From IMG/VR virus record IMGVR_UViG_3300040971_000013: a DNA stretch of 58,793 bases. The stretch is one strand, 5' to 3'. How positions within the stretch are numbered: position 1 is the stretch's first letter; each line of letters opens with the position of its first letter. Made by a program: the position numbers and the translations under genes. Below the pieces are notes generated by a model. That model did no database searches, was not told the origin of the DNA, and saw only the letters and a list, made by a program, of their open reading frames with translations. This stretch comes from an uncultured virus (IMG/VR IMGVR_UViG_3300040971_000013). Taxonomy: Duplodnaviria; Heunggongvirae; Uroviricota; Caudoviricetes. Positions 6,543 to 41,569 of the stretch are shown piece by piece.

Positions 6543-7013
6543 ATGCGAATTTTTGGAAACATCATCTGGCATCTGTTTTGTTTTGGTTGGTTGACATCTT
6601 TGATTTCTGTTCTGTTTGGAGCTCTATTTTCTATTACTGGATTTCTAACACCGATTGGACTGGGATTAATTCAGTACGCAAAATTTACATTAGCTCCTTT
6701 TAGCTATTCTATGCTATCAAAGAAAGAACTACGTCCAGTAACTCATCAGACTGGTTTTATCTGGAAACTACTATCAGTTATTGGATTTATTCTATATGCT
6801 CCGTTTGGTATTGCTTTGGTGATTCTCGGAGTCTTTCAAGCAATCGTATTGATTTGTACTATTATTGGTATTCCGATGGCTATTCCATATATCAAGAGTC
6901 TTGGTACTCTGTTTAATCCTATCGGAAAGGTCTGTGTTCCAAGAGTTGTAGCTACAGCAGTTAAAGCTCGGAATGATGCGATGGTTGTAGAAAAATATAT
7001 TGGGACTGTGTAA
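6543..7013 (+). CDS. YccF-family inner membrane protein
   Basis: GNIIW..FGW and TIIGIP.A....K.....F.PIGK repeats characteristic of YccF. Confidence 0.85.
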   Translation: MRIFGNIIWHLFCFGWLTSLISVLFGALFSITGFLTPIGLGLIQYAKFTLAPFSYSMLSKKELRPVTHQTGFIWKLLSVIGFILYAPFGIALVILGVFQAIVLICTIIGIPMAIPYIKSLGTLFNPIGKVCVPRVVATAVKARNDAMVVEKYIGTV

Positions 7014-7021
7014 ACTACTTG

Positions 7022-7083
7022 TTGACAATACTCCTTGGTTGAGTTATTCTAAACTCAATTGAACAACATAAACCAAGGAGTTT
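7022..7083 (+). promoter_or_regulatory. early promoter embedded in RBS-sequestering stem-loop (PeSL-like), copy 1
   Basis: TTGACA-N17-TATTCT; ACTCCTTGGTT/AACCAAGGAGT inverted repeat; 54 bp identical to 11440-11493. Confidence 0.85.
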
Positions 7084-7088
7084 ACAAA

Positions 7089-7259
7089 ATGTCTAATACA
7101 ATCAAGTTCAAGAAAGGCGATGAAGTAAAGTTCTTTGAGCACGGCAGTTCAATTCCAGTCTATGGAAAGATACTCTCTGTTGGAAAAGTAAACTATAAAA
7201 TCATCAGTTCTGACGGGTTGATATATTTCATCCCTCCAAGATTACTAAATTTTGATTGA
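7089..7259 (+). CDS. small SH3-like hypothetical protein
   Basis: AAGGAG RBS; FKKGDEVKF..G....GKI. Confidence 0.6.
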   Translation: MSNTIKFKKGDEVKFFEHGSSIPVYGKILSVGKVNYKIISSDGLIYFIPPRLLNFD

Positions 7260-7353
7260 TAAATAATGTATCAGGAACAATGAGCTAACAGCCATCCCGG
7301 ACCTTGAAACCGGTGTCAAGAAGTAACTTGATGTTCCAATTGTTCTTTGAAAT

Positions 7354-7432
7354 CTCCCTCTCGCCTAACTTGGTTATGGCTCTCGGTTTGGAGCCGAGTA
7401 TAATGCTTGTTCGAATCAAGCGGGGGAGACCA
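7354..7432 (+). tRNA. tRNA-Pro(TGG)
   Basis: cloverleaf; CTCGG-TTTGGAG-CCGAG anticodon arm; TTCGAAT T loop; CCA end. Confidence 0.9.
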
Positions 7433-7435
7433 TAT

Positions 7436-7513
7436 GTCCTCGTAGTCCAACTGGTAGGAGACAAGAGATTCAAGATCTCTACAGTGTCTGTTCGAATCAG
7501 ACCGGGGATACCA
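7436..7513 (+). tRNA. tRNA-Leu(CAA) with short variable loop
   Basis: AGAGA-TTCAAGA-TCTCT arm; TTCGAAT; CCA end. Confidence 0.85.
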
Positions 7514-7532
7514 TGAAACAAGGAAACTAATA

Positions 7533-7682
7533 ATGAAAACTGTATGGGTTGTAATAGAAAGTGATCGAGGAATGGGTGAGTCTGTCCTAGGTGTCTATAT
7601 ATCAAAAGACAAAGCTTTTAAACTTGCTGCTGAATCTTCTCACTATTATGTGACTGAATCAGAACTTGATGAAGATGAATAG
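7533..7682 (+). CDS. small hypothetical protein inside tRNA array
   Basis: 49-aa ORF MKTVWVVIE...; AAGGA RBS. Confidence 0.55.
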   Translation: MKTVWVVIESDRGMGESVLGVYISKDKAFKLAAESSHYYVTESELDEDE

Positions 7683-7689
7683 AACATTA

Positions 7690-7761
7690 GCCGATATAGT
7701 TCAGTGGTAGAACGCTTGTTTTGTAATCAAGATGTCGGGAGTTCAAATCTCTCTATCGGCT
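7690..7761 (+). tRNA. tRNA-Thr(TGT)
   Basis: GCCGATA/TATCGGC acceptor stem; TTTGTAA loop; GTTCAAATC; no encoded CCA. Confidence 0.9.
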
Positions 7762-7773
7762 CAAATAAATTTT

Positions 7774-7857
7774 GCTCTCGTGGTGGAACGGGATACACGC
7801 TGGTCTTAGAAACCAGTGCCTTCGGGATTGTAGGTTCAAATCCTACCGGGAGTACCA
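7774..7857 (+). tRNA. tRNA-Leu(TAG)
   Basis: CTGGT-CTTAGAA-ACCAG; long variable arm; CCA end. Confidence 0.92.
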
Positions 7858-7858
7858 T

Positions 7859-7981
7859 GTTTGGTTCGTCTAATAATCTGTCTGAATTGCGCAATAAATG
7901 ACAGATAAGACTCCATTTTAAATATGGAAATACAGGACAATAGATTATGCATGATCATTGAGCGCCCTGTACCAAATACCA
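7859..7981 (+). ncRNA. enlarged tRNA-like RNA (TAA anticodon) with hairpins inserted in D and T loops
   Basis: GTTTGGT/ACCAAAT acceptor + ACCA; GTCT/AGAC D stem; TCCAT-TTTAAAT-ATGGA anticodon arm; ACAGG/CCTGT T stem. Confidence 0.7.
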
Positions 7982-7985
7982 TTTT

Positions 7986-8061
7986 GTGTCTGAACCCAAA
8001 TAGCGAGGGCACTGGCCGTGACCCAGTTGGCTAGTGGGAGCGTTACCCACCGGACACTCCA
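7986..8061 (+). tRNA. atypical tRNA-His(GTG)
   Basis: ACTGG-CCGTGAC-CCAGT arm; GTGGG-AGCGTTA-CCCAC T arm; CCA end. Confidence 0.75.
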
Positions 8062-8063
8062 AT

Positions 8064-8175
8064 TTTTGACCACTCTTAGCGGAGGAGCGTAGGATAAGGC
8101 GGATTGTCTTGCGGTACTTATCAATTACGTCACATCATCCAAGAGTAAGCAGACATGAGGGATGATTGGTCAAAA
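8064..8175 (+). ncRNA. candidate pseudoknotted structured RNA
   Basis: TTTTGACCA/TGGTCAAAA closing stem; ATCATCC/GGATGAT stem; ACTCTT/AAGAGT pseudoknot. Confidence 0.5.
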
Positions 8176-8181
8176 TATCTA

Positions 8182-8210
8182 TTGACAGTTTATCTTAACT
8201 TAGATATTCT
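8182..8210 (+). promoter_or_regulatory. sigma70-type promoter upstream of tRNA(CAT)
   Basis: TTGACA-N17-TATTCT. Confidence 0.75.
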
Positions 8211-8230
8211 ATTCTCATCTGAAACCATAT

Positions 8231-8306
8231 TGCCGTATAGTTCAATTGGTAGAATCCCCGGCTCATAACCGGACAGTTCCAGATTCGAGTTCTGGTGCGG
8301 CAACCA
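8231..8306 (+). tRNA. tRNA with CAT anticodon (Met or Ile2)
   Basis: CCGG-CTCATAA-CCGG arm; TGCCGTA/TGCGGCA acceptor; CCA end. Confidence 0.9.
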
Positions 8307-8505
8307 AACCACGGAGTTTCAAATGAAACCATCTTATTACAAAACAGCTCGCCAAATTTCCACATCTCTTTTTGTTAAGATCATTTTCTATTCTGAAGAA
8401 ACTAATATGTTCTTTTGTGAAGTTCCTACCGATAATACATATACAACATATAATGAACACTGGTTGAGAGCAGATGAACTGTCTGACTTTTGTTTATAGG
8501 AGCGG

Positions 8506-8748
8506 TTGATGAATATTCTAAAAGCATCTTTTGAGTTTGTAGTATTGCTTTGTAAAAATCTGTTCATGTATTTGCTGCTTGGAACATTGTTTATATGTAG
8601 TCTTGCAGCTATTGTTGTAATAGTACATATGATCATGTATTACTTTTTTCCATATGATGTTGTTAAGCTTTTTGCTTCTATTGTCGGAGTGTTTGTTTAT
8701 CTGATTGTGTTTTGTACTGTTGTACAATTCAGAGAAAGGAGAGGTTAA
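8506..8748 (+). CDS. membrane protein
   Basis: two hydrophobic helices; AGGAG RBS. Confidence 0.6.
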   Translation: MMNILKASFEFVVLLCKNLFMYLLLGTLFICSLAAIVVIVHMIMYYFFPYDVVKLFASIVGVFVYLIVFCTVVQFRERRG

Positions 8749-26504: not shown

Positions 26505-27650
26505 CTAAAGACTTTCTAGCTTGAGGTCTCCAATGAGACCTGATTCTTGCTTCACCGGAACCCGTGTTCCTCCACAAGCAAACAACGCCGTTGCCGCGTC
26601 TTTGATATTTATGGCTGCGTTCAAGTCTCTATCAATCGACAGACCACAGTTTTCGCAATGGTAGGTTCTCTCACTAAGAGACAAATCTTTCTTGACGAAA
26701 CCGCACGCAGAACAAGTTTTACTTGAAGGATAGAACCTACCAACTTCAACTAGTTCTTTGACTTTATGTTTTAGTTTCATTTTGAATGAGAACCATGGAA
26801 GCTGTTGAATAGATGGTGCCAAACAATGATTTTTCTTCATTCCTTGAATGTTTAGATTTTCCATTGAAACAACATCGTAACTCTTGGCTATCGAGCTAAC
26901 ATAGTTGTTTATTAGATCATCTTTTATTCTTGAGATTTTTCTATATTGTTTTGCAACCTTTATTCTAGCTTTATTTCTGTTATTTGATCCTTTTTGTTTT
27001 CTAGTAAATGATCTTTGAAGTTTCTTTAGTTTCGTTGTTTCTTGTTCTAGTTTTGGTAGTTCGAAGACTTCACCATCACTAGTGATAGCAAAGGTTTTTA
27101 TACCAAGATCAATACCGACTACTGATTTGTAATCTATGGTAGGTACCGGTACATCTTGTTCACATAAGATAGAAACGAACCATTGATCCACATCGAGGGA
27201 AATTACCAAAGATTTAGCTTTGCCTGATAGTTTTCTATGATTGACTATTTTTATCCAACCAATCTTCGGCAATTTAACTTTGTTGCCACGGATATTAAAA
27301 TGTTGTGGTACAGAGAAAGCTTGTTTAGAACTCTTTCTTGATTTGAATTTAGGAAAACCACCAGTTTTATGTTTGAATTTATTACTAAAAGCTTTACCCA
27401 AATTTAGTGCAGATTGTTGAAGTGATTGACTGTTTACTTTCTTCAACCAATCATTATTTTCTTTTATTGGTTTTACCGCATTAGATAATGCCATACCGAA
27501 CATAAATTTCTTCTCATTTTCATATAAGGAAATTTGTTGTTCAAGGAGTTTATTATAAATAAAACGGGACGCACCACAATGTTCTATAAACAAGGATTCT
27601 TGCGTTTTGGTAGGTTTTATTCTAAACTTATATGAAATATATCTAATCAT
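26505..27650 (-). CDS. tnpB: RNA-guided endonuclease TnpB
   Basis: GIDLG, MENL, CSACG/CENCG zinc finger, DRDLNAAINI all intact. Confidence 0.96.
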   Translation of the reverse strand: MIRYISYKFRIKPTKTQESLFIEHCGASRFIYNKLLEQQISLYENEKKFMFGMALSNAVKPIKENNDWLKKVNSQSLQQSALNLGKAFSNKFKHKTGGFPKFKSRKSSKQAFSVPQHFNIRGNKVKLPKIGWIKIVNHRKLSGKAKSLVISLDVDQWFVSILCEQDVPVPTIDYKSVVGIDLGIKTFAITSDGEVFELPKLEQETTKLKKLQRSFTRKQKGSNNRNKARIKVAKQYRKISRIKDDLINNYVSSIAKSYDVVSMENLNIQGMKKNHCLAPSIQQLPWFSFKMKLKHKVKELVEVGRFYPSSKTCSACGFVKKDLSLSERTYHCENCGLSIDRDLNAAINIKDAATALFACGGTRVPVKQESGLIGDLKLESL

Positions 27651-32788: not shown

Positions 32789-33843
32789 ATGAATTAGAAA
32801 AAGAATTAACAAACAAGAAAAGTAAAAAATGTAAGAAGTGCGGAGATCCTGTAGATTCGCCAATTCGTCAAGCTATGCATTGCTCGAAATGTACGTTTGA
32901 ACGTATGTCCTTTGATCAGAAATCAAAGGTAGATCCTACTTTCTTAAATGACAAGGATTTAAATATTGATTATGTAAAGTGCCCTATTTGTGGATATCTG
33001 TCTAGATCACTTCAGAGTCACATTATATATCAACATAAAGATATATCTAATAAAGATTTCAAATTAATGTATCCAGATAGTCCAATTATTTGTGAAAATG
33101 AAAGACAAATTAGAAGTGATAAGATTAGTGGAGATAAAAATCCAGCATTCGATCACGGCGGTAAATTTTCTCCATATTCAAAAAAGTACATATACTATAA
33201 CGAAGAACAGAGATTAAGCTCGTTAGCAAAGGCATCTGAAAATAGATCTTATAATACTCAGCTTGAATATTACACTAATAAAGGTCTTTCAGAACAAGAG
33301 GCTCTAGAAGCTTTATCAAAAAGACAAACCACATTTTCTCTTGATAGATGCATAGAACAATACGGCGAAGAACTTGGATATGAAAAATGGAAAGAACGAC
33401 AAGAGAAATGGCAAAACACTCTTAAATCTAAATCTGATGAAGAGATAGCAGAGATAAACAAAAAGAAGATTAGTGGTGGAAGTATTTCTAAAAGTGAAAA
33501 AGAAATTGCTGAATACGTTAAATCTATCTTTCCAGAAACAGAAACACAACTATTTTTGAAAAACAATCATAATTGTTATTTATATGATATTTGTGTTGGT
33601 AATAAAATAATAGAATATAATGGATGCTATTGGCACGCATCACCAAATAGATTTAATGCTGATGATGTAGTTAGAATAATCAATGAGTGTGCATTAACAG
33701 CACAAGAAATTTGGGATAGAGATGCTGTTAAACTGCAGGTAGCTAAAGAAAATGGATATGAAGTTTTGGTCATATGGGAAAACGAATTTCATTCCGACAA
33801 ACAAGGAATTTTGAATAAATGCATAAACTTTCTGACAACATAG
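32734..33843 (+). CDS. free-standing homing endonuclease (Vsr/DUF559-like, EDxHD-type) with zinc fingers
   Basis: YDI...IIEYNGCYWH...D..K...GY.VLVIWE; CxxC motifs. Confidence 0.85.
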   Translation: MASIHKNVRRTIDDFIELDELEKELTNKKSKKCKKCGDPVDSPIRQAMHCSKCTFERMSFDQKSKVDPTFLNDKDLNIDYVKCPICGYLSRSLQSHIIYQHKDISNKDFKLMYPDSPIICENERQIRSDKISGDKNPAFDHGGKFSPYSKKYIYYNEEQRLSSLAKASENRSYNTQLEYYTNKGLSEQEALEALSKRQTTFSLDRCIEQYGEELGYEKWKERQEKWQNTLKSKSDEEIAEINKKKISGGSISKSEKEIAEYVKSIFPETETQLFLKNNHNCYLYDICVGNKIIEYNGCYWHASPNRFNADDVVRIINECALTAQEIWDRDAVKLQVAKENGYEVLVIWENEFHSDKQGILNKCINFLTT

Positions 33844-35888
33844 AACGCAAATATACTGATGTTATAACTCTAGACGGGTTTGAAATTAAGACCGATTCTG
33901 GTTTCAAACCCGTCGTCAAAGTTATGCAAACAGTGCAATATGAAAAATGGATATTACGTACTGAATCCCTTGAACTGGAGTGTGCTGATACTCATATAGT
34001 TTTTAGAGAAGATATGACAGAGGTATTTGTTAAAGACCTAATAGTCGGTGACAAAATAGTTTGTAAGCACGGCACCGAAACTGTTGTAAGCGTCTATAAT
34101 ACATATATTTTAGAACATATGTATGATCTAGAAGTAGATGATGATAACCATAGATTCTATTCTAATGATATTCTATCCCATAATTCTACATCCACAATCT
34201 GTTTTCTATTATGGTATTTGCTTTTTAATCCAAATAAATCTATAGCGCTTTTAGCTAATAAAGGTGCTACATCAAGGATGCTCCTTGCTAGAGTACAGCT
34301 TGCATACTATAATCTTCCAAAATGGCTTCAACAGGGTATAGTAGACTGGAACAAAGGTTCCTTTTCATTGGAAAATGGCTCTAGAATCGTCGCAGCTTCT
34401 ACAAGTTCTGATTCTATTCGCGGTGATAGTTTTAGTTGTATAACAGGCGAAACTCTTATTACTGTAAAAGACTTTCTCGGTATCATTCGTAAAATTGAAA
34501 TTAAAGACGCGGCACCATATACAGAAGTTTTAACCAATAAAGGATTCAAGAAATATAATGGTCTATTGGTTACATCTAATAGAAAAGATAAACTGAAGAT
34601 TTGTTTTTCTGATAGTTCTTTTCTTAGATGCACACTAGACCATCAGGTTATGTTATTGGATGGATCATTTGTAAAAGCAGAAGATCTATCTACTAACCAT
34701 ATTCTATTCGGCTTTAAACAGATTGAAAAAATAGAGTTCTTTCAGAGTGATGAAGATGTATATGATTTAATTAATGTAGAAGAGACTGCTTCATATATTA
34801 CATCCGGTATTGTTAGTCATAACTGTATAGTATTAGACGAAATGGCGTTCATTCCAAAGAACACATATGATGATTTTTATAAATCTGTATATCCTACTAT
34901 TTCATCTGGTGCTGATACCAAATTTATTGCTGTTTCTACTCCGAATGGAATGAACCATTTCTATGATGCATGGATGAAGGCCGTTGAAAAGAAATCGCGA
35001 TTTGTTCCAATCGAAGTCAATTGGTGGGATGTTCCTGGTAGAGATGAAGCTTGGAAAGAAGAACAACTTGCAAACATGTCTGAGGAGGACTTTTCCCAAG
35101 AATATGCGAACAATTTTGTCGGGAGTTGCCATACTCTTCTCCGCCCAGACACTCTATCTAGAATAGACCGAGATTGTTTGAAACCTATTCAGTCTAGTAA
35201 ACAGACTGCGATCTTTAAAGAACCTATCTGGGGTCATAAGTATATTGCTACGGTGGATTGTGCTGATACTGGAGATGACGCGTCTACTATTTCTATTATA
35301 GACATTACACAATATCCATATGAGCAGGTCGCACGCTTCAAAGACAATAAGATCTCTCATCTATCGTTTCCACAGATCATTGTAAATTTTGCAACAAAGT
35401 ATAATATGGCTGATGTGCTTGTAGAATCTAATGATGTTGGAAAAGTAATTCTTCATATTCTGAACTATGATATCGGATATGAGAATATTGTTTCTACAAA
35501 GATCGGAGCTAGAATTGGTCTCGGACAAAGAACAACGTCCAAGACAAAGCCAATTGGATGTGCCCGTCTGAAAGATATGCTAGAGTCTGGAAAGATGATT
35601 ATTAGAGATGCTGATACGTCTACTGAATTGAAACATTTCGTTTTAGACGGACATTCTTATGCTGCTGAAGACGGATACCATGATGATCTTGTTATGGGTC
35701 TTGTGAATCTTGCTTATTATGCAAATACAAGCTCATTTAGATATCATCATGACAGTAACTTTACTGATGAATATCGAAAAGAATATGAGGGGAGCATCAT
35801 GGATATGTTGACTCCCCTCCCTATGTTCTCTGTTGATAATGAAGTAGACGAAGAAGATCTTTCATTTCTTCGTGAACTTCGAAGTTAA
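33819..35888 (+). CDS. 17: terminase large subunit C-fragment: C-intein (33819-34184) + TerL with internal mini-intein (34437-34823)
   Basis: CADTH...MYDLEV...SHN/S; CITGET...CTLDH...SHN/CIVLDE; STPNG.NHFY; HDDLVM. Confidence 0.92.
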   Translation: MHKLSDNIERKYTDVITLDGFEIKTDSGFKPVVKVMQTVQYEKWILRTESLELECADTHIVFREDMTEVFVKDLIVGDKIVCKHGTETVVSVYNTYILEHMYDLEVDDDNHRFYSNDILSHNSTSTICFLLWYLLFNPNKSIALLANKGATSRMLLARVQLAYYNLPKWLQQGIVDWNKGSFSLENGSRIVAASTSSDSIRGDSFSCITGETLITVKDFLGIIRKIEIKDAAPYTEVLTNKGFKKYNGLLVTSNRKDKLKICFSDSSFLRCTLDHQVMLLDGSFVKAEDLSTNHILFGFKQIEKIEFFQSDEDVYDLINVEETASYITSGIVSHNCIVLDEMAFIPKNTYDDFYKSVYPTISSGADTKFIAVSTPNGMNHFYDAWMKAVEKKSRFVPIEVNWWDVPGRDEAWKEEQLANMSEEDFSQEYANNFVGSCHTLLRPDTLSRIDRDCLKPIQSSKQTAIFKEPIWGHKYIATVDCADTGDDASTISIIDITQYPYEQVARFKDNKISHLSFPQIIVNFATKYNMADVLVESNDVGKVILHILNYDIGYENIVSTKIGARIGLGQRTTSKTKPIGCARLKDMLESGKMIIRDADTSTELKHFVLDGHSYAAEDGYHDDLVMGLVNLAYYANTSSFRYHHDSNFTDEYRKEYEGSIMDMLTPLPMFSVDNEVDEEDLSFLRELRS

Positions 35889-38859: not shown

Positions 38860-39147
38860 TTATTCCTTTATAAATTCTTCAGCTTCATCAATAGAAGTGA
38901 ACCCTAATCTAAATAGTGGCCCATTAGGATCTTCTTTCAGTTGATATTGAGTTTTCTCTTTAGTTTCTGGATCTTCGTATACTTTGTGAGTATCATCTTC
39001 TAAGCCATCACCTATTAGTTCTATAGGATACCAGTTGTCTTTAGTATCAATTAAGTCTTGTACAAAGGATCTGGTTTGTTCTGGGAAATCTATAATAAGG
39101 TTTTCCAGATCAGCCTTTGTGTTTATGTATTTTGGGAACCCTCTCAT
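38860..39147 (-). CDS. hypothetical protein overlapping RT 3' end (tail-associated or DGR accessory)
   Basis: MRGFPKYINTKAD...LFRLGFT; AGGAG RBS; not recognisably Avd. Confidence 0.65.
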   Translation of the reverse strand: MRGFPKYINTKADLENLIIDFPEQTRSFVQDLIDTKDNWYPIELIGDGLEDDTHKVYEDPETKEKTQYQLKEDPNGPLFRLGFTSIDEAEEFIKE

Positions 39148-40144
39148 TAATTGCTCCTATTAAGTCGTTTATCAATTTCAATATATATTTATTTATATGT
39201 GTCGCCCAGGATAGCCAACCAATAGAGGAACATAATGATCCAGCACATTTTGTATAATTGAAAAATTTATTGTGTGATTGTATTTTAAATAATACTAAAC
39301 GACGAATAACTCTTCGACATGTAGAACGTCTAAGAAAAATCATATTAGAGTGATGTTTATATCCTACAAAATCTACACCAGAAGCAACTGGGATTATACA
39401 CCATTTTGAAAATTTTAACTTTATACCGCATAAAAAAGATTCTATAGAATCTTTTATTGTTTTTAGATGGCGTTTACAGTTGCTAAAAATAACAATATCA
39501 TCAGAGTATCGTATATATGGCTTTACCCTAAACGTATGCTTTATATATTGGTCCAATTCATTTAAATACAAATTACCAAACCACTGGCTTGTATAATTTC
39601 CAATAGGAATGTTACAATCTCCCGGAAAAGACCGTATTATATCTTCAATCAAAATCAAAGTATGTTTACATTTTATTTTCTTTTTTATAATGAATAAGAG
39701 AGTATCATGGTTAATAGATGGATAGAATTTACTAATATCAGTTTTCAAACAATATTTGTATTGTTTAACATATTTAGAAACCTTTTTACTTGCTTTATGA
39801 ATTCCCTTCCCTTTTCTACAAGAGTATGAATCATGAATCATCATTTTGTCCCATATTGGAATTAGAATTTGGAGGAGGGCATGTTGCACAATTCTATCTG
39901 GTGCAAAGGGTAATTTATATATTGTTCGTTCTTTTGGTATATAGATGGTTTTATTAGTATACTGAGATGTAGTATATTGACCGGATACTAAAAGTGTTTG
40001 AATTTTCTTCAAGTTTTCTTCTACATTTTTTTCAAATTCTATAACCGCAGCGCGTTTATGTTTTCCTTTAGACGCGGCTATATATGCGCTATATAAATTA
40101 TCATATTCTATTATTTTATTCCATAGATTGCCATGTCGTTTCAA
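39110..40144 (-). CDS. DGR reverse transcriptase
   Basis: PKER.I, DRIVQHA, SCRKGKG.H, LK.DI.KFY.SI, PIGNYTSQ, YIRYSDD, DFVGY; TTG start after AGGAG. Confidence 0.95.
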   Translation of the reverse strand: MKRHGNLWNKIIEYDNLYSAYIAASKGKHKRAAVIEFEKNVEENLKKIQTLLVSGQYTTSQYTNKTIYIPKERTIYKLPFAPDRIVQHALLQILIPIWDKMMIHDSYSCRKGKGIHKASKKVSKYVKQYKYCLKTDISKFYPSINHDTLLFIIKKKIKCKHTLILIEDIIRSFPGDCNIPIGNYTSQWFGNLYLNELDQYIKHTFRVKPYIRYSDDIVIFSNCKRHLKTIKDSIESFLCGIKLKFSKWCIIPVASGVDFVGYKHHSNMIFLRRSTCRRVIRRLVLFKIQSHNKFFNYTKCAGSLCSSIGWLSWATHINKYILKLINDLIGAINERVPKIHKHKG

Positions 40145-40290
40145 AAATACTCCTAAAATAGACTTAATCTGATTTTCGTATAAAACTACTAACCAGATTA
40201 AATCTTTCATAATTTCGCTGACAGACCATTAGTTTATCTGTGCAACTGGATTAAGAGCCGGCCAAAGCGGACGTTTATTCCGCCATGTAT

Positions 40291-40391
40291 CAGACGACCC
40301 ACGACAAGAGTTATTGGAATTCAAATTCAGAGGAGAATTATTCCAATTAGAAGCGCGTGAACCGCAATTCACACCATTAGACCAATCGCCG
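40291..40391 (-). repeat. DGR template repeat (TR)
   Basis: 101-nt copy of 40462-40562 with nine AAY codons; differences almost all at TR adenines. Confidence 0.95.
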
Positions 40392-40419
40392 AGAATCTAT
40401 ATACTCTCTCACCCAAATA

Positions 40420-40427
40420 TATTTATA
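40420..40427 (-). promoter_or_regulatory. T4-type late promoter upstream of TR-RT
   Basis: TATAAATA 28 nt upstream of TR. Confidence 0.7.
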
Positions 40428-40444
40428 CACACAGTATTCATTCA

Positions 40445-41569
40445 TTAGATGATTCTTGGCCCAGACGACCCACGACAAGAGCGATTGGAATTCAAAGTCA
40501 GAGGAGAATTATTCCAAGCAGAAGCGCGTGAACCGCAAGACACACCATAAGACCAAGTGCCGCCAAGGAGACACCTATACGGAGCTTGATAATGTTGCCC
40601 GCCAACTCCGCTATCATTACCGTCAAAAGCGTTTGCCCAAGCTGCAGCAGTCATTACACCACCAGTATCCCTACCCCATTGCCATAAAGCACCACAAAGA
40701 TCCTCTATTCCTTCATTAGAAATCATTCTACGGCCAGCAGTATCAACATGCCCCGTAGTAGTAACTGGATCAGCGCTACCTGTTATATTGGTACCTTGAT
40801 TACATCCTTCACTAGCAGAGAAGAATTCTTGCTGTGAAATAGTTTTCATACCCTGTCTTGCGAACCATTGTTCAAATTTATATGTATGAAAAGCTGGTGA
40901 AGAAGTTCCATCAGCAATAGTTCCATTGTTTACAGATACTAGAGTTGTGCCAGAAACAGAAGGAAGATATATATCAATCCATTTACCACATCTAGATAGT
41001 ACAGTTCCTTCCTGTCTTCCAGAACTTCTATTCATTAGATCCCATACACTTCTAGGCAGAATATCTCCAGCAACGTAACCAGATAGATCATGTCCAGCAA
41101 TAGTCCCGACAGATACGCATAGACAATGGAATCCACCAATCTTCCTAGTATTAGTTGCTGTCTGACCAGTAGGAAAGGTACTATTAGCAGACAGCAATAG
41201 AGTGGTTTGATTTTCTATAGCATACACGTAAAAGTCTTTTCCAGATCTATTAGCTGGTGTAGCAAAAGAGGCTGTATCCCAATTAGATGCTGTATTGATA
41301 TCTATGTTGTATGGGGTAATCTTTGATAGTTTACCGTTGACAATGACAAGAACCTCTGGCACGTTTAGTGTGGTTCTTGTGCCCGATGCACCACCTGCAA
41401 ACTTTTCTGATCGATCAAAGTATGACACTGAAGGACCATAAAAAGCATTTCCATTGATTGTAAATCCATTTGGAAACTCTACAGGACCAGTCTTAGCTAC
41501 ATTAGAAATTTGATCTGTGCCGACTGTACCAGATGTTACACCAGTACTTCCGTCTAATATAATAGGCAT
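40445..41569 (-). CDS. DGR target, Mtd-like C-type-lectin-fold receptor-binding protein
   Basis: RKIGGFH, WIDIYL, G.ED.CG.LWQW, GG.W..G..CGSR...W. Confidence 0.9.
   Translation of the reverse strand: MPIILDGSTGVTSGTVGTDQISNVAKTGPVEFPNGFTINGNAFYGPSVSYFDRSEKFAGGASGTRTTLNVPEVLVIVNGKLSKITPYNIDINTASNWDTASFATPANRSGKDFYVYAIENQTTLLLSANSTFPTGQTATNTRKIGGFHCLCVSVGTIAGHDLSGYVAGDILPRSVWDLMNRSSGRQEGTVLSRCGKWIDIYLPSVSGTTLVSVNNGTIADGTSSPAFHTYKFEQWFARQGMKTISQQEFFSASEGCNQGTNITGSADPVTTTGHVDTAGRRMISNEGIEDLCGALWQWGRDTGGVMTAAAWANAFDGNDSGVGGQHYQAPYRCLLGGTWSYGVSCGSRASAWNNSPLTLNSNRSCRGSSGPRII
40462..40562 (-). repeat. DGR variable repeat (VR)
   Basis: at 3' end of target gene; 9 substitutions at TR adenines, 1 at a G at the 5' edge. 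Confidence 0.95.

What the first reader, a model, noticed from the sequence alone, without database searches (positions are those of the whole stretch)
7859..7981. 123-nt tRNA with extra hairpins grafted into both D and T loops
Seen: one base after the CCA of tRNA-Leu(TAG) begins a full cloverleaf. It has acceptor GTTTGGT/ACCAAAT + ACCA, D stem GTCT/AGAC, anticodon arm TCCAT-TTTAAAT-ATGGA (TAA) and T stem ACAGG/CCTGT. The D loop carries a TCTGTC/GACAGA hairpin, and the 7-nt T loop is replaced by 29 nt folding CAAT-GATTA/TGATC-ATTG. The conserved GG and TTC elbow residues are missing. Preserved stems plus structured insertions argue against simple decay. Inference: a non-canonical tRNA mimic (decoy for anticodon nucleases or a synthetase, or an elbow-replaced tRNA) or a tRNA with non-canonical introns. 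Standard tRNA scanners would probably miss it.
Basis: partly seen in the sequence, partly recalled or inferred. Interest (0 to 1): 0.8.

Follow-up and report, generated by a model that had tools for sequence, protein, structure and literature searches.

The report
Orphan tRNA look-alike with two extended arms
A phage tRNA gene cluster holds one 123-base gene that folds like a leucine tRNA but has long hairpins where the tRNA corner should be; it is real and not chance, but close relatives lack it and no second copy was found, so its function is open.

Summary
Window 7859-7981 (+) begins one base after the CCA of tRNA-Leu(TAG). The D arm is extended by a 7-bp helix and the T arm by 4+5 bp. ARAGORN and Rfam do not call it. 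A strict scan for this architecture finds only this site in the window and none in 117 shuffled windows.

It shares G1·U72 + A73 + CCA with the phage's two Leu tRNAs only, so it looks Leu-tRNA-derived.

It is an orphan. The one related contig (94-100% identical flanks) has a 78-nt tRNA(TAG) in its place. Contigs from other runs join across it. Pattern, BLAST and covariance-model searches found no homologue. Covariation therefore cannot be tested.

Best reading (0.45): a co-transcribed, tRNA-style processed tRNA-like RNA that cannot decode normally. Main rival (0.35): a recently disabled tRNA-Leu(UAA) gene. The intron reading is rejected. The closest known kind is T4 RNAC/RNAD.

The parts
7859..7981 (+). 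123-nt tRNA-like gene (whole element, G1 to CCA)
   Evidence: Sequence. The MFE fold equals the cloverleaf with two extended arms. It is the only hit of the strict architecture scan, with 0 hits in 117 shuffles. Self-match of model R1 is 157.5 bits and there is no other match in the window.
7859..7865 (+). Acceptor stem 5' strand GTTTGGT; pairs with 7971-7977 ACCAAAT (G1·U72), followed by A7978 (discriminator) and CCA 7979-7981
   Evidence: G1·U72 + A73 + CCA is shared only with Leu(CAA) and Leu(TAG) of this cluster.
7868..7911 (+). Extended D arm: stem GTCT/AGAC (7868-7871/7908-7911), internal loop AATA/A, helix ATCTGTC/GACAGAT (7876-7882/7900-7906), 17-nt apical loop 7883-7899 holding the palindrome ATTGCGCAAT (7886-7895)
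   Evidence: pair probabilities 0.74-0.99. The hairpin is more stable than 99.2% of shuffles. The palindrome is unique in the window.
7912..7928 (+). Anticodon arm TCCAT-TTTAAAT-ATGGA; anticodon TAA at 7919-7921, U33, A37; no base between the D stem and this stem
   Evidence: probabilities 0.90-1.0.
7932..7970 (+). Extended T arm: stem ACAGG/CCTGT (7932-7936/7966-7970), internal loop A/AGCGC, helix CAAT/ATTG (7938-7941/7957-7960), bulged A7942, helix GATTA/TGATC with one U·G (7943-7947/7952-7956), loop TGCA
   Evidence: probabilities 0.70-1.0. The extension alone is not significant against shuffles (p about 0.2).
7774..7857 (+). tRNA-Leu(TAG), long variable arm, ends ACCA. Together with the element it forms the 7773-7976 cassette that differs from the relative.
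   Evidence: (56 bits).
7022..7050 (+). Sigma-70-like promoter TTGACA-17-TATTCT. It is the likely start of the transcript that carries tRNA-Pro to the element and beyond. No terminator-like site lies in 6900-8700.
   Evidence: consensus scan only; 4 sites found against 5.8 expected, so this is weak.
7986..8064 (+). Neighbouring second tRNA look-alike, conserved in relatives: acceptor GTGTCTG/CGGACAC + TCCA, D arm CCC/GGG, anticodon loop CCGTGAC (GTG, C33), T arm GTGGG-AGCGTTA-CCCAC. It has no GG and no TTC either.
   Evidence: ARAGORN calls it only in -mt mode (mtRNA-His) and Rfam does not call it. It has 1 change against L001, G-C to G·U. It is covered by relatives' contigs in the four laid runs.

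Best explanation
The element is a lineage-specific gene for a tRNA-like RNA derived from a leucine-type tRNA, sitting as one unit in the tRNA operon of a T4-type phage.

Inferred mechanism:
1. It is transcribed with the neighbouring tRNAs from the promoter-like site at 7022-7050.
2. The 7-bp acceptor stem stacked on the 5-bp T stem, plus the encoded ACCA, makes it a substrate for the host's tRNA end-processing. RNase P would cut before G7859, which at the same time frees the 3' end of tRNA-Leu(TAG) one base upstream. The 3' end would be trimmed back to the CCA.
3. The product keeps a normal acceptor stem and anticodon stem-loop (UAA). Its D and T arms run on as helices, so the D-loop/T-loop corner ('elbow') does not exist. 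The ribosome, RNase P's specificity domain and LeuRS all contact that corner.
4. It is therefore unlikely to be charged or to decode. It more likely acts, if it acts at all, as a non-translating tRNA mimic that offers an acceptor end and/or a U/A-rich anticodon loop to some tRNA-binding factor.

Shown: the sequence, the fold prediction, non-chance, position, the Leu-type end features, and absence from relatives.

Inferred: transcription, processing, stability and any function.
For: - The fold is the MFE and all helices are robust. There are 37 predicted pairs with only two G·U and no mismatch.
- The architecture is not expected by chance: it is the only hit in the window, with 0 hits in 117 shuffled windows and 0 doubly or singly expanded strict hits in 275 kb of other fetched loci, where 64 ordinary tRNAs were found.
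- It fills a tRNA slot exactly, 1 nt after a CCA and 4 nt before the next tRNA-like cloverleaf, on the same strand, with no terminator between.
- G1·U72 + A73 + CCA is shared with Leu(CAA) and Leu(TAG) but not with Pro, Thr or Met. The Leu anticodon UAA completes CAA and UAG. TTA is 20% of Leu codons in 28 long ORFs.
- Both expansions fall in the two loops and extend the arms without touching any stem. One extension pair is U·G, which is a pair in RNA but a mismatch in DNA.
- A second cloverleaf without GG/TTC lies next to it and is conserved in relatives. This phage group therefore keeps at least one elbow-less tRNA look-alike.
- Precedent of kind: T4 rnaD (119 nt) starts 1 nt after tRNA-Arg and rnaC (139 nt) follows. 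Both are expressed and of unknown function (PMC9697503, passages seen).
- The elbow is contacted by the ribosome A, P and E sites, RNase P, RNase Z and LeuRS (PMC4810234, passages seen).
Against: - No homologue was found anywhere, so there is no covariation and no conservation.
- The only related contig (flanks 94-100% identical) has a 78-nt tRNA(TAG) instead of the 7773-7976 cassette.
- Contigs of two other runs join across the element: X10 7772->7977; X6 7819->7984 with 40 letters of a tRNA-Leu 3' half between. These were laid at 80% likeness with sides of 39 and 32.
- The element is thus dispensable and recent in this lineage.
- No RNA data exist for it.
- The energy z-score is only -2.4 and the reverse strand folds as well.
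- The T extension alone is not better than shuffles.
- In the context of the precursor, the predicted acceptor stem probability drops to about 0.3.
- Without the elbow, RNase P recognition should be weaker (PMC4810234).
Confidence: 0.45

Rival explanations
1. It is a dead gene: a class-I-shaped tRNA-Leu(UAA) gene that was recently disabled by two palindromic insertions, one in each loop. It may still be transcribed but does nothing and will decay.
For: - It is absent from the related contig and from contigs that join across the site.
- No homologue was found in any search.
- The conserved GG and TTC are missing.
- Both inserts contain DNA palindromes (ATTGCGCAAT, ATGCAT), as template-switch or palindrome insertions would.
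Against: - Two independent insertions both landing in the two short loops, with all 21 core pairs, U33, A37 and ACCA untouched, is unlikely without selection. Recency could explain the intact stems.
- The helix GATTA/TGATC has a U·G, so it is not a perfect DNA palindrome.
- The inserts are not copies of anything else in the window.
Confidence: 0.35
2. It is a working tRNA-Leu(UAA) that is charged and decodes UUA/UUG despite the enlarged arms.
For: - The acceptor stem, A73, CCA and a regular anticodon arm are intact.
- The G1·U72 + A73 signature matches the phage's Leu tRNAs.
- TTA and TTG make up 37% of Leu codons, and the phage's other tRNAs read A-ending codons.
Against: - There is no elbow, which the ribosome's three sites and LeuRS contact (PMC4810234).
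- About 11-bp and about 9-bp helices would project from the corner.
- There is no base 26 and the variable region is 3 nt.
- The Rfam tRNA model gives no hit at E<=10.
- Relatives do without it.
Confidence: 0.08
3. It is a tRNA gene with two non-canonical introns that are spliced out to give a normal tRNA.
For: Only the position of the extra sequence in the loops.
Against: - Removal of the hairpins leaves loops of 5 and 6 nt without GG or TTC (read).
- There is no bulge-helix-bulge geometry.
- The inserts are too short for self-splicing introns and none was called by Rfam.
- The setting is a bacterial-type phage.
- ARAGORN with introns allowed does not find it.
Confidence: 0.03
4. It is a chance fold of spacer DNA or an assembly artefact.
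For: The energy z-score is modest and the reverse strand folds equally well.
Against: - 0 of 117 shuffled windows give such a site.
- The fit into a tRNA slot is exact and it carries ACCA.
- All sampled words of 7690-8310 are held by the contigs of four runs of one sample. Those are the same sample, so they are not independent of the window.
Confidence: 0.02

Closest known systems
Phage T4 small stable RNAs RNAC (species 1, rnaC, 139 nt) and RNAD (species 2, rnaD, 119 nt)
   Same: - They are non-tRNA RNAs of 119-139 nt encoded inside a T4-type phage tRNA cluster on the tRNA strand. rnaD begins one base after tRNA-Arg, as the element begins one base after tRNA-Leu.
- Their function is unknown (PMC9697503, passage).
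- rnaC folds with a closing stem next to a T-arm.
   Different: - There is no sequence or model similarity: no BLAST hit and no R1 hit in the T4 region.
- T4 rnaC keeps a canonical T arm (GGUUCGAAUCC), and neither T4 RNA shows a full four-arm cloverleaf with a 7-nt anticodon loop in the MFE.
- The element keeps the whole cloverleaf but has no canonical T or D loop.
- The T4 RNAs are expressed. The element was not found in the one related contig or in contigs of two runs that join across its site.
Canonical bacterial and phage tRNA-Leu
   Same: Leu anticodon (UAA), A73, encoded CCA, 7-bp acceptor, 5-bp anticodon and T stems, U33, A37; G1·U72 as in this phage's Leu tRNAs.
   Different: - No long variable arm (3 nt).
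- No G18G19 and no T54-Psi55-C56.
- D and T 'loops' of 36 and 29 nt that form helices.
- Not scored by the Rfam tRNA model or ARAGORN.
Viral tRNA-like structures (for example TYMV TLS) and other tRNA mimics
   Same: It is a virus-encoded RNA that imitates part of a tRNA.
   Different: Known viral mimics go to lengths to reproduce the elbow while changing the rest (PMC4810234, passages). This one does the opposite: it keeps the cloverleaf stems and anticodon loop and gives up the elbow. No Rfam tRNA-like or Y-RNA-like family matched at E<=10.
Elbow-less metazoan mitochondrial tRNAs
   Same: The canonical D-loop/T-loop interaction is lacking. The neighbouring 7986-8064 cloverleaf is recognised only by ARAGORN's mitochondrial mode.
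   Different: Mitochondrial tRNAs are shrunken (arms lost) and work with co-adapted ribosomes and enzymes (PMC4810234). Here the arms are enlarged and the host is a bacterium.

Membership tests
tRNA (Rfam RF00005 / ARAGORN definition) | Four-arm cloverleaf with 7-bp acceptor, 7-nt anticodon loop, U33, purine 37 | tested here: met
tRNA (Rfam RF00005 / ARAGORN definition) | Conserved elbow residues: G18G19 in an 8-11-nt D loop and T54-Psi55-C56 in a 7-nt T loop | tested here: not met
   The D 'loop' is 36 nt without GG and the T 'loop' is 29 nt without TTC.
tRNA (Rfam RF00005 / ARAGORN definition) | Reaches the family's score (29 bits) or is called by a tRNA finder | tested here: not met
   No tRNA-model hit on 7859-7981 even at E<=10. 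ARAGORN does not call it in default, -ps, -i, -ps60 or -mt modes.
Bacterial tRNA-Leu (class II) | Long variable arm | tested here: not met
   The variable region is AAT, 3 nt. The phage's own Leu(CAA) also lacks a long arm.
Bacterial tRNA-Leu (class II) | A73 discriminator and Leu anticodon | tested here: met
   A7978; TAA at 7919-7921. That A73 is the main LeuRS identity element is recalled, not tested.
Bacterial tRNA-Leu (class II) | Aminoacylation by LeuRS | not testable with these tools
   Needs an enzyme assay.
T4 RNAC/RNAD-type small stable RNAs of phage tRNA clusters | Encoded within the tRNA cluster, same strand, abutting a tRNA | tested here: met
T4 RNAC/RNAD-type small stable RNAs of phage tRNA clusters | Sequence or structure homology to T4 rnaC or rnaD | tested here: not met
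   No BLAST hit to T4-type phages over more than 35 nt. Model R1 gives no hit in the T4 tRNA region.
T4 RNAC/RNAD-type small stable RNAs of phage tRNA clusters | Accumulates as a stable processed RNA | not testable with these tools
   No RNA run holds the element. The runs laid carry relatives that lack it.
Intron-containing tRNA (archaeal bulge-helix-bulge type or group I) | Splice motif at the insert borders and a canonical tRNA after removal | tested here: not met
   By inspection there are no 3-nt/4-bp/3-nt motifs, and the residual loops are 5 and 6 nt without GG/TTC. No intron family in Rfam. ARAGORN -i is negative.
tRNA pseudogene | Loss of conserved residues and no conservation in relatives | tested here: met
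tRNA pseudogene | Degraded stems (mismatches accumulating) | tested here: not met
   All 21 core pairs and 16 extension pairs are standard or G·U.

The most novel reading that the evidence does not exclude
The element is a functional 'elbow-replaced' tRNA-Leu(UAA) mimic made by a phage. It would be a stable, RNase P-processed RNA that keeps a genuine acceptor end and anticodon stem-loop. Its D and T arms continue as helices, possibly tied by the GCGC (7889-7892) / GCGC (7962-7965) contact, so that it stays out of the ribosome and away from LeuRS. It would serve as bait for a host factor that attacks or senses tRNA anticodon loops or 3' ends. Together with the conserved elbow-less His-like cloverleaf next to it, it would define a class of phage tRNA look-alikes built on the opposite principle to known viral tRNA mimics.
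Probability: 0.15. Interest if true: 0.75.

Novelty: new variant of a known kind. Interest (0 to 1): 0.42.

Why it matters
Phage tRNA clusters have been known for decades to carry extra small RNAs whose function is still unknown (T4 RNAC and RNAD). Phage tRNAs are now being linked to escape from tRNA-cutting defences.

An RNA that keeps every tRNA stem, the anticodon loop and the CCA end but swaps the elbow for two helices would be a clean natural experiment. It would show which tRNA-binding machines need the elbow. If functional, it would be a new way for a virus to imitate a tRNA.

As it stands it is a single sequence without relatives. Its value is as a well-defined candidate for a simple bench test, and as a reminder that standard scanners miss such genes.

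Tried and rejected
1. Homologue searches that found nothing usable:
   - Exact 26-mer and 17-mer of the element in IMG/VR: 0 loci, and 6 loci without tRNAs.
   - Acceptor-anchored gapped patterns in IMG/VR: 81 and 98 loci. The 179 of these loci held were checked; they contained 0 tRNAs and 0 BLAST similarity, so they are chance matches.
   - 21-mer in GTDB genomes: 2 chance hits, one a coding region and one a hairpin.
   - BLAST of the 123 nt against GenBank phages: 6 hits of 24-35 nt with E>=0.3.
   - The T-arm 20-mer of the adjacent tRNA-Leu(TAG) in IMG/VR: 101 loci, none with the element or the full tRNA.
   - Model R1: 0 hits in the relative's 141-kb record, and 0 in 100 loci (99 of the 101 T-arm loci plus the T4 tRNA region; L296 and L301 were left out).

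It returned only the already known contig and one GC-rich chance hit.

3. No whole genome is held for the window. Earlier-findings look-ups returned nothing.

4. Depth over 7892-7965 is zero in the four laid runs. By itself this is no evidence; only the joints across the site are used.

5. The runs listed as RNA are probably DNA according to the tool and carry relatives without the element, so they say nothing about expression.

6. Repeat or mobile-hairpin idea: the inserts have no other copy in the window, and nothing like them lies near the TnpB gene.

7. ORFs overlapping the element (7704-7901 +, 7836-8012 -, 7945-8124 -) have no Pfam family.

8. The element is not a derivative of the relative's 78-nt tRNA(TAG). 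By eye the anticodon loops are alike (TTTAGAA against TTTAAAT), but no stem is similar.

9. The GCGC/GCGC D-T contact has a chance expectation of roughly 0.1 by my estimate. It is kept only as an idea.

10. Literature searches found no description of a phage tRNA-like RNA with both arms extended. Only the CC-licensed PMC and bioRxiv library was searched.

Full report
**What is there**

ARAGORN places tRNA-Leu(TAG) at 7774-7857 with its CCA. T7858 is the only spacer, and G7859 opens a 7-bp acceptor stem (GTTTGGT / ACCAAAT, first pair G·U) that closes at 7977 and is followed by ACCA.

Inside lie these features:
- a 4-bp D stem
- a 5-bp anticodon stem with the 7-nt loop TTTAAAT (anticodon TAA, U33, A37)
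- a 3-nt variable region
- a 5-bp T stem

In place of an 8-11-nt D loop there are 36 nt that form a 7-bp helix (ATCTGTC/GACAGAT) with a 17-nt apical loop. In place of the 7-nt T loop there are 29 nt that form CAAT/ATTG plus GATTA/TGATC. Neither loop contains the GG or TTC of the tRNA elbow.

The unconstrained minimum-energy fold is this very structure (-28.1 kcal/mol, z -2.39). With the element folded alone, 36 of the 37 pairs have a probability of 0.7 or more; the innermost acceptor pair is 0.47. ARAGORN in five settings and the Rfam tRNA model at E<=10 do not report it.

**Is it more than chance?**

- A script looked for the same architecture: all stems fully paired, NCCA tail, U33, purine 37, D and T loops of 4-45 nt. 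It finds this one site in both strands of the 58.8-kb window.
- The same script finds none in 117 dinucleotide-preserving shuffles of the whole window.
- The criteria were written after seeing the element, so the test is generous to it. The exact fit into a tRNA slot is independent of that.
- The D extension alone is more stable than 99.2% of shuffles. The T extension alone is not remarkable.
- The reverse strand folds as well. The strand is assigned from the ACCA end, the anticodon-loop features and the cluster orientation.

**Setting**

The window is part of a T4-type myophage:
- T4 RNase H C-terminal domain
- T4-type large terminase, with GenBank phage terminases as best tblastn matches at 36-48% identity
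- gp6-like baseplate proteins, a reverse transcriptase with an Mtd-like protein, and a TnpB gene

GC is about 36%. No whole genome is held.

The tRNA cluster reads Pro(TGG), Leu(CAA), a 49-aa ORF, Thr(TGT), Leu(TAG), the element, a second look-alike at 7986-8064, about 105 nt of structured sequence, a promoter-like site, then Met(CAT). Promoter-like TTGACA-17-TATTCT sites lie at 7022-7050 and 8182-8210, and there is no terminator-like site in 6900-8700 (a consensus scan only). Co-transcription with the tRNAs is therefore the natural reading, but it is inferred.

**Leu-type features**

The element shares G1·U72, A73 and an encoded CCA with Leu(CAA) and Leu(TAG) of this cluster. Pro has C1-G72, Thr has G1-C72 and Met has T1-A72. 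The relative's tRNA(TAG) also has G1·U72 and A73.

Its anticodon UAA completes the Leu set CAA and UAG. TTA is 20%, CTA 21% and TTG 17% of Leu codons in 28 long ORFs. This points to descent from, or tuning to, the same leucine-tRNA convention. I could not show paralogy to any gene here, because the stems are unlike.

**Relatives lack it**

- One IMG/VR contig of 141 kb (G001/L001) encodes a 70%-identical homologue of the 391-aa neighbour gene. It matches the cluster at 94-100% DNA identity on both sides.
- In that contig, window 7773-7976 (tRNA-Leu(TAG) plus the element) is replaced by a single 78-nt class-I-shaped tRNA(TAG). Homology resumes at the shared ACCA-TTT.
- Contigs of four public runs were laid on 7300-8400 at 80% likeness. 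One contig of X10 joins 7772 to 7977. One contig of X6 joins 7819 to 7984 with 40 letters that read like the 3' half of a tRNA-Leu. The tool warns that such joints at low likeness can come from other organisms; the sides were 39 and 32 letters.
- So at least one relative, and probably three, have no element. One of them seems to have the long-armed tRNA-Leu(TAG) directly before the downstream conserved sequence.
- The cluster is an indel hot spot in general. Relatives carry a tRNA-Asn insertion and show presence or absence of the 49-aa ORF.
- The hexamer TACCAT stands at both borders of the 124-nt extra segment. That fits recombination between tRNA 3' ends.

**No homologue found**

- Exact patterns from the element in IMG/VR gave 0 loci, and 6 loci without tRNAs.
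- Acceptor-anchored gapped patterns gave 81 and 98 loci. Among the 179 of them checked there were 0 tRNAs and 0 similarity.
- A 21-mer in GTDB genomes gave 2 chance hits.
- BLAST against GenBank phages gave only 24-35-nt hits at E>=0.3.
- The T-arm of the adjacent tRNA-Leu gave 101 loci, none with the element.
- A covariance model of the element matched only itself in the window (157.5 bits). It found nothing in the relative's record, in 99 tRNA-cluster loci or in the T4 tRNA region.
- The large collections could only be searched by exact words, so a homologue at 80% identity would mostly be missed there.

**What it most likely is**

The acceptor/T-stem stack with ACCA is what tRNA end-processing needs. 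I therefore expect RNase P to cut before G7859, which also releases tRNA-Leu(TAG), and exonucleases to trim to the CCA. That minihelix substrates are cleaved is recalled from the older literature, not seen here.

The elbow is contacted by the ribosome in the A, P and E sites, by RNase P, by RNase Z and by LeuRS (PMC4810234, passages). With both arms running on as helices, normal charging and decoding are unlikely.

- Best reading (0.45): a tRNA-derived, structurally maintained, non-decoding tRNA-like RNA.
- Main rival (0.35): a recently disabled tRNA-Leu(UAA) gene.

For selection:
- Both expansions sit in the two loops and leave all 21 core pairs, U33, A37 and ACCA intact.
- One extension pair is a U·G.
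- The neighbouring 7986-8064 cloverleaf, also without GG/TTC, is conserved in relatives.

For decay:
- It is absent from relatives.
- It has no homologues.
- The inserts contain DNA palindromes.

The intron reading is rejected, because removal leaves 5- and 6-nt loops without the conserved residues and there is no splice motif. A working decoder gets 0.08 and chance 0.02.

**Comparison with what is known**

The closest kind is the pair of small stable RNAs of phage T4. rnaD (119 nt) starts one base after tRNA-Arg and rnaC (139 nt) follows. Both are expressed late and still of unknown function (PMC9697503, passages). There is no homology. T4 rnaC keeps a canonical T arm, whereas the element keeps the cloverleaf and drops both canonical loops.

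Known viral tRNA mimics preserve the elbow and alter the rest (PMC4810234). This element does the reverse. I file it as a new variant of a known kind (an extra tRNA-like RNA gene in a phage tRNA cluster), not as a tRNA and not as a member of the T4 RNA families.

**Verdict**

This is a real, non-random, unusual tRNA look-alike. It is a single orphan sequence that its nearest relatives lack, without expression or covariation evidence. It deserves moderate interest and is cheap to test.

Noticed in passing
window 7986-8064 (+): A second tRNA look-alike lies 4 nt after the element. It has acceptor GTGTCTG/CGGACAC then TCCA, D arm CCC-AAATAGCGA-GGG, anticodon loop CCGTGAC (GTG, with C33), and T arm GTGGG-AGCGTTA-CCCAC. 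It has no GG/TTC and no G-1/C73 of tRNA-His. Only ARAGORN's mitochondrial mode calls it; Rfam does not. Unlike the element it is conserved: it shows 1 change against L001, G-C to G·U, and relatives' contigs in four runs cover it.
   Followed up: partly
MFE is -31.1 kcal/mol, z -1.9. It shows 5 differences against L001. It may be a further small RNA of the cluster, placed like T4 rnaC after rnaD.
   Followed up: partly
window 7436-7513; L001 3771-3848: Two 78-nt tRNAs carry Leu anticodons (CAA in the window, TAG in the relative) but have no long variable arm. Both have G1·U72 and A73. The window's Leu(CAA) scores 48.9 bits with two non-standard D-stem pairs. Class-I-shaped 'Leu' tRNAs are unusual for bacteria and phages.
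   Followed up: no
window 7432-7436 and 7513-7690: The cluster is an indel hot spot. Relatives (L001, X5) carry a tRNA-Asn(GTT) of 77 extra letters between Pro and Leu(CAA). L001, X5 and X10 lack the 49-aa ORF 7533-7682 (phrog_3002; weak DUF7336), with 11 letters in its place.
   Followed up: partly
window 7022-7050 and 8182-8210: Two identical promoter-like sites, TTGACA-17-TATTCT, lie one before the small ORF and first tRNA sub-cluster and one before tRNA-Met. This gives a two-sub-cluster layout.
   Followed up: no
window 33819-35888; 39110-41569; 26505-27650: The large terminase has a weak intein-splicing match (27.2 bits, below Pfam's cut-off) between its N- and C-terminal domains. A reverse transcriptase sits next to an Mtd-like protein, as in a diversity-generating retroelement. 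There is also a TnpB (OrfB_IS605) gene.
   Followed up: no
L248 431-517 (+), IMG/VR contig: An 87-nt cloverleaf has a 19-nt D loop, a normal 7-nt T loop and anticodon loop CTGTTAA. It was found by the relaxed scan with one mismatch allowed. L231 699-780 has a 14-nt D loop. These are mildly expanded tRNAs in other phages.
   Followed up: no
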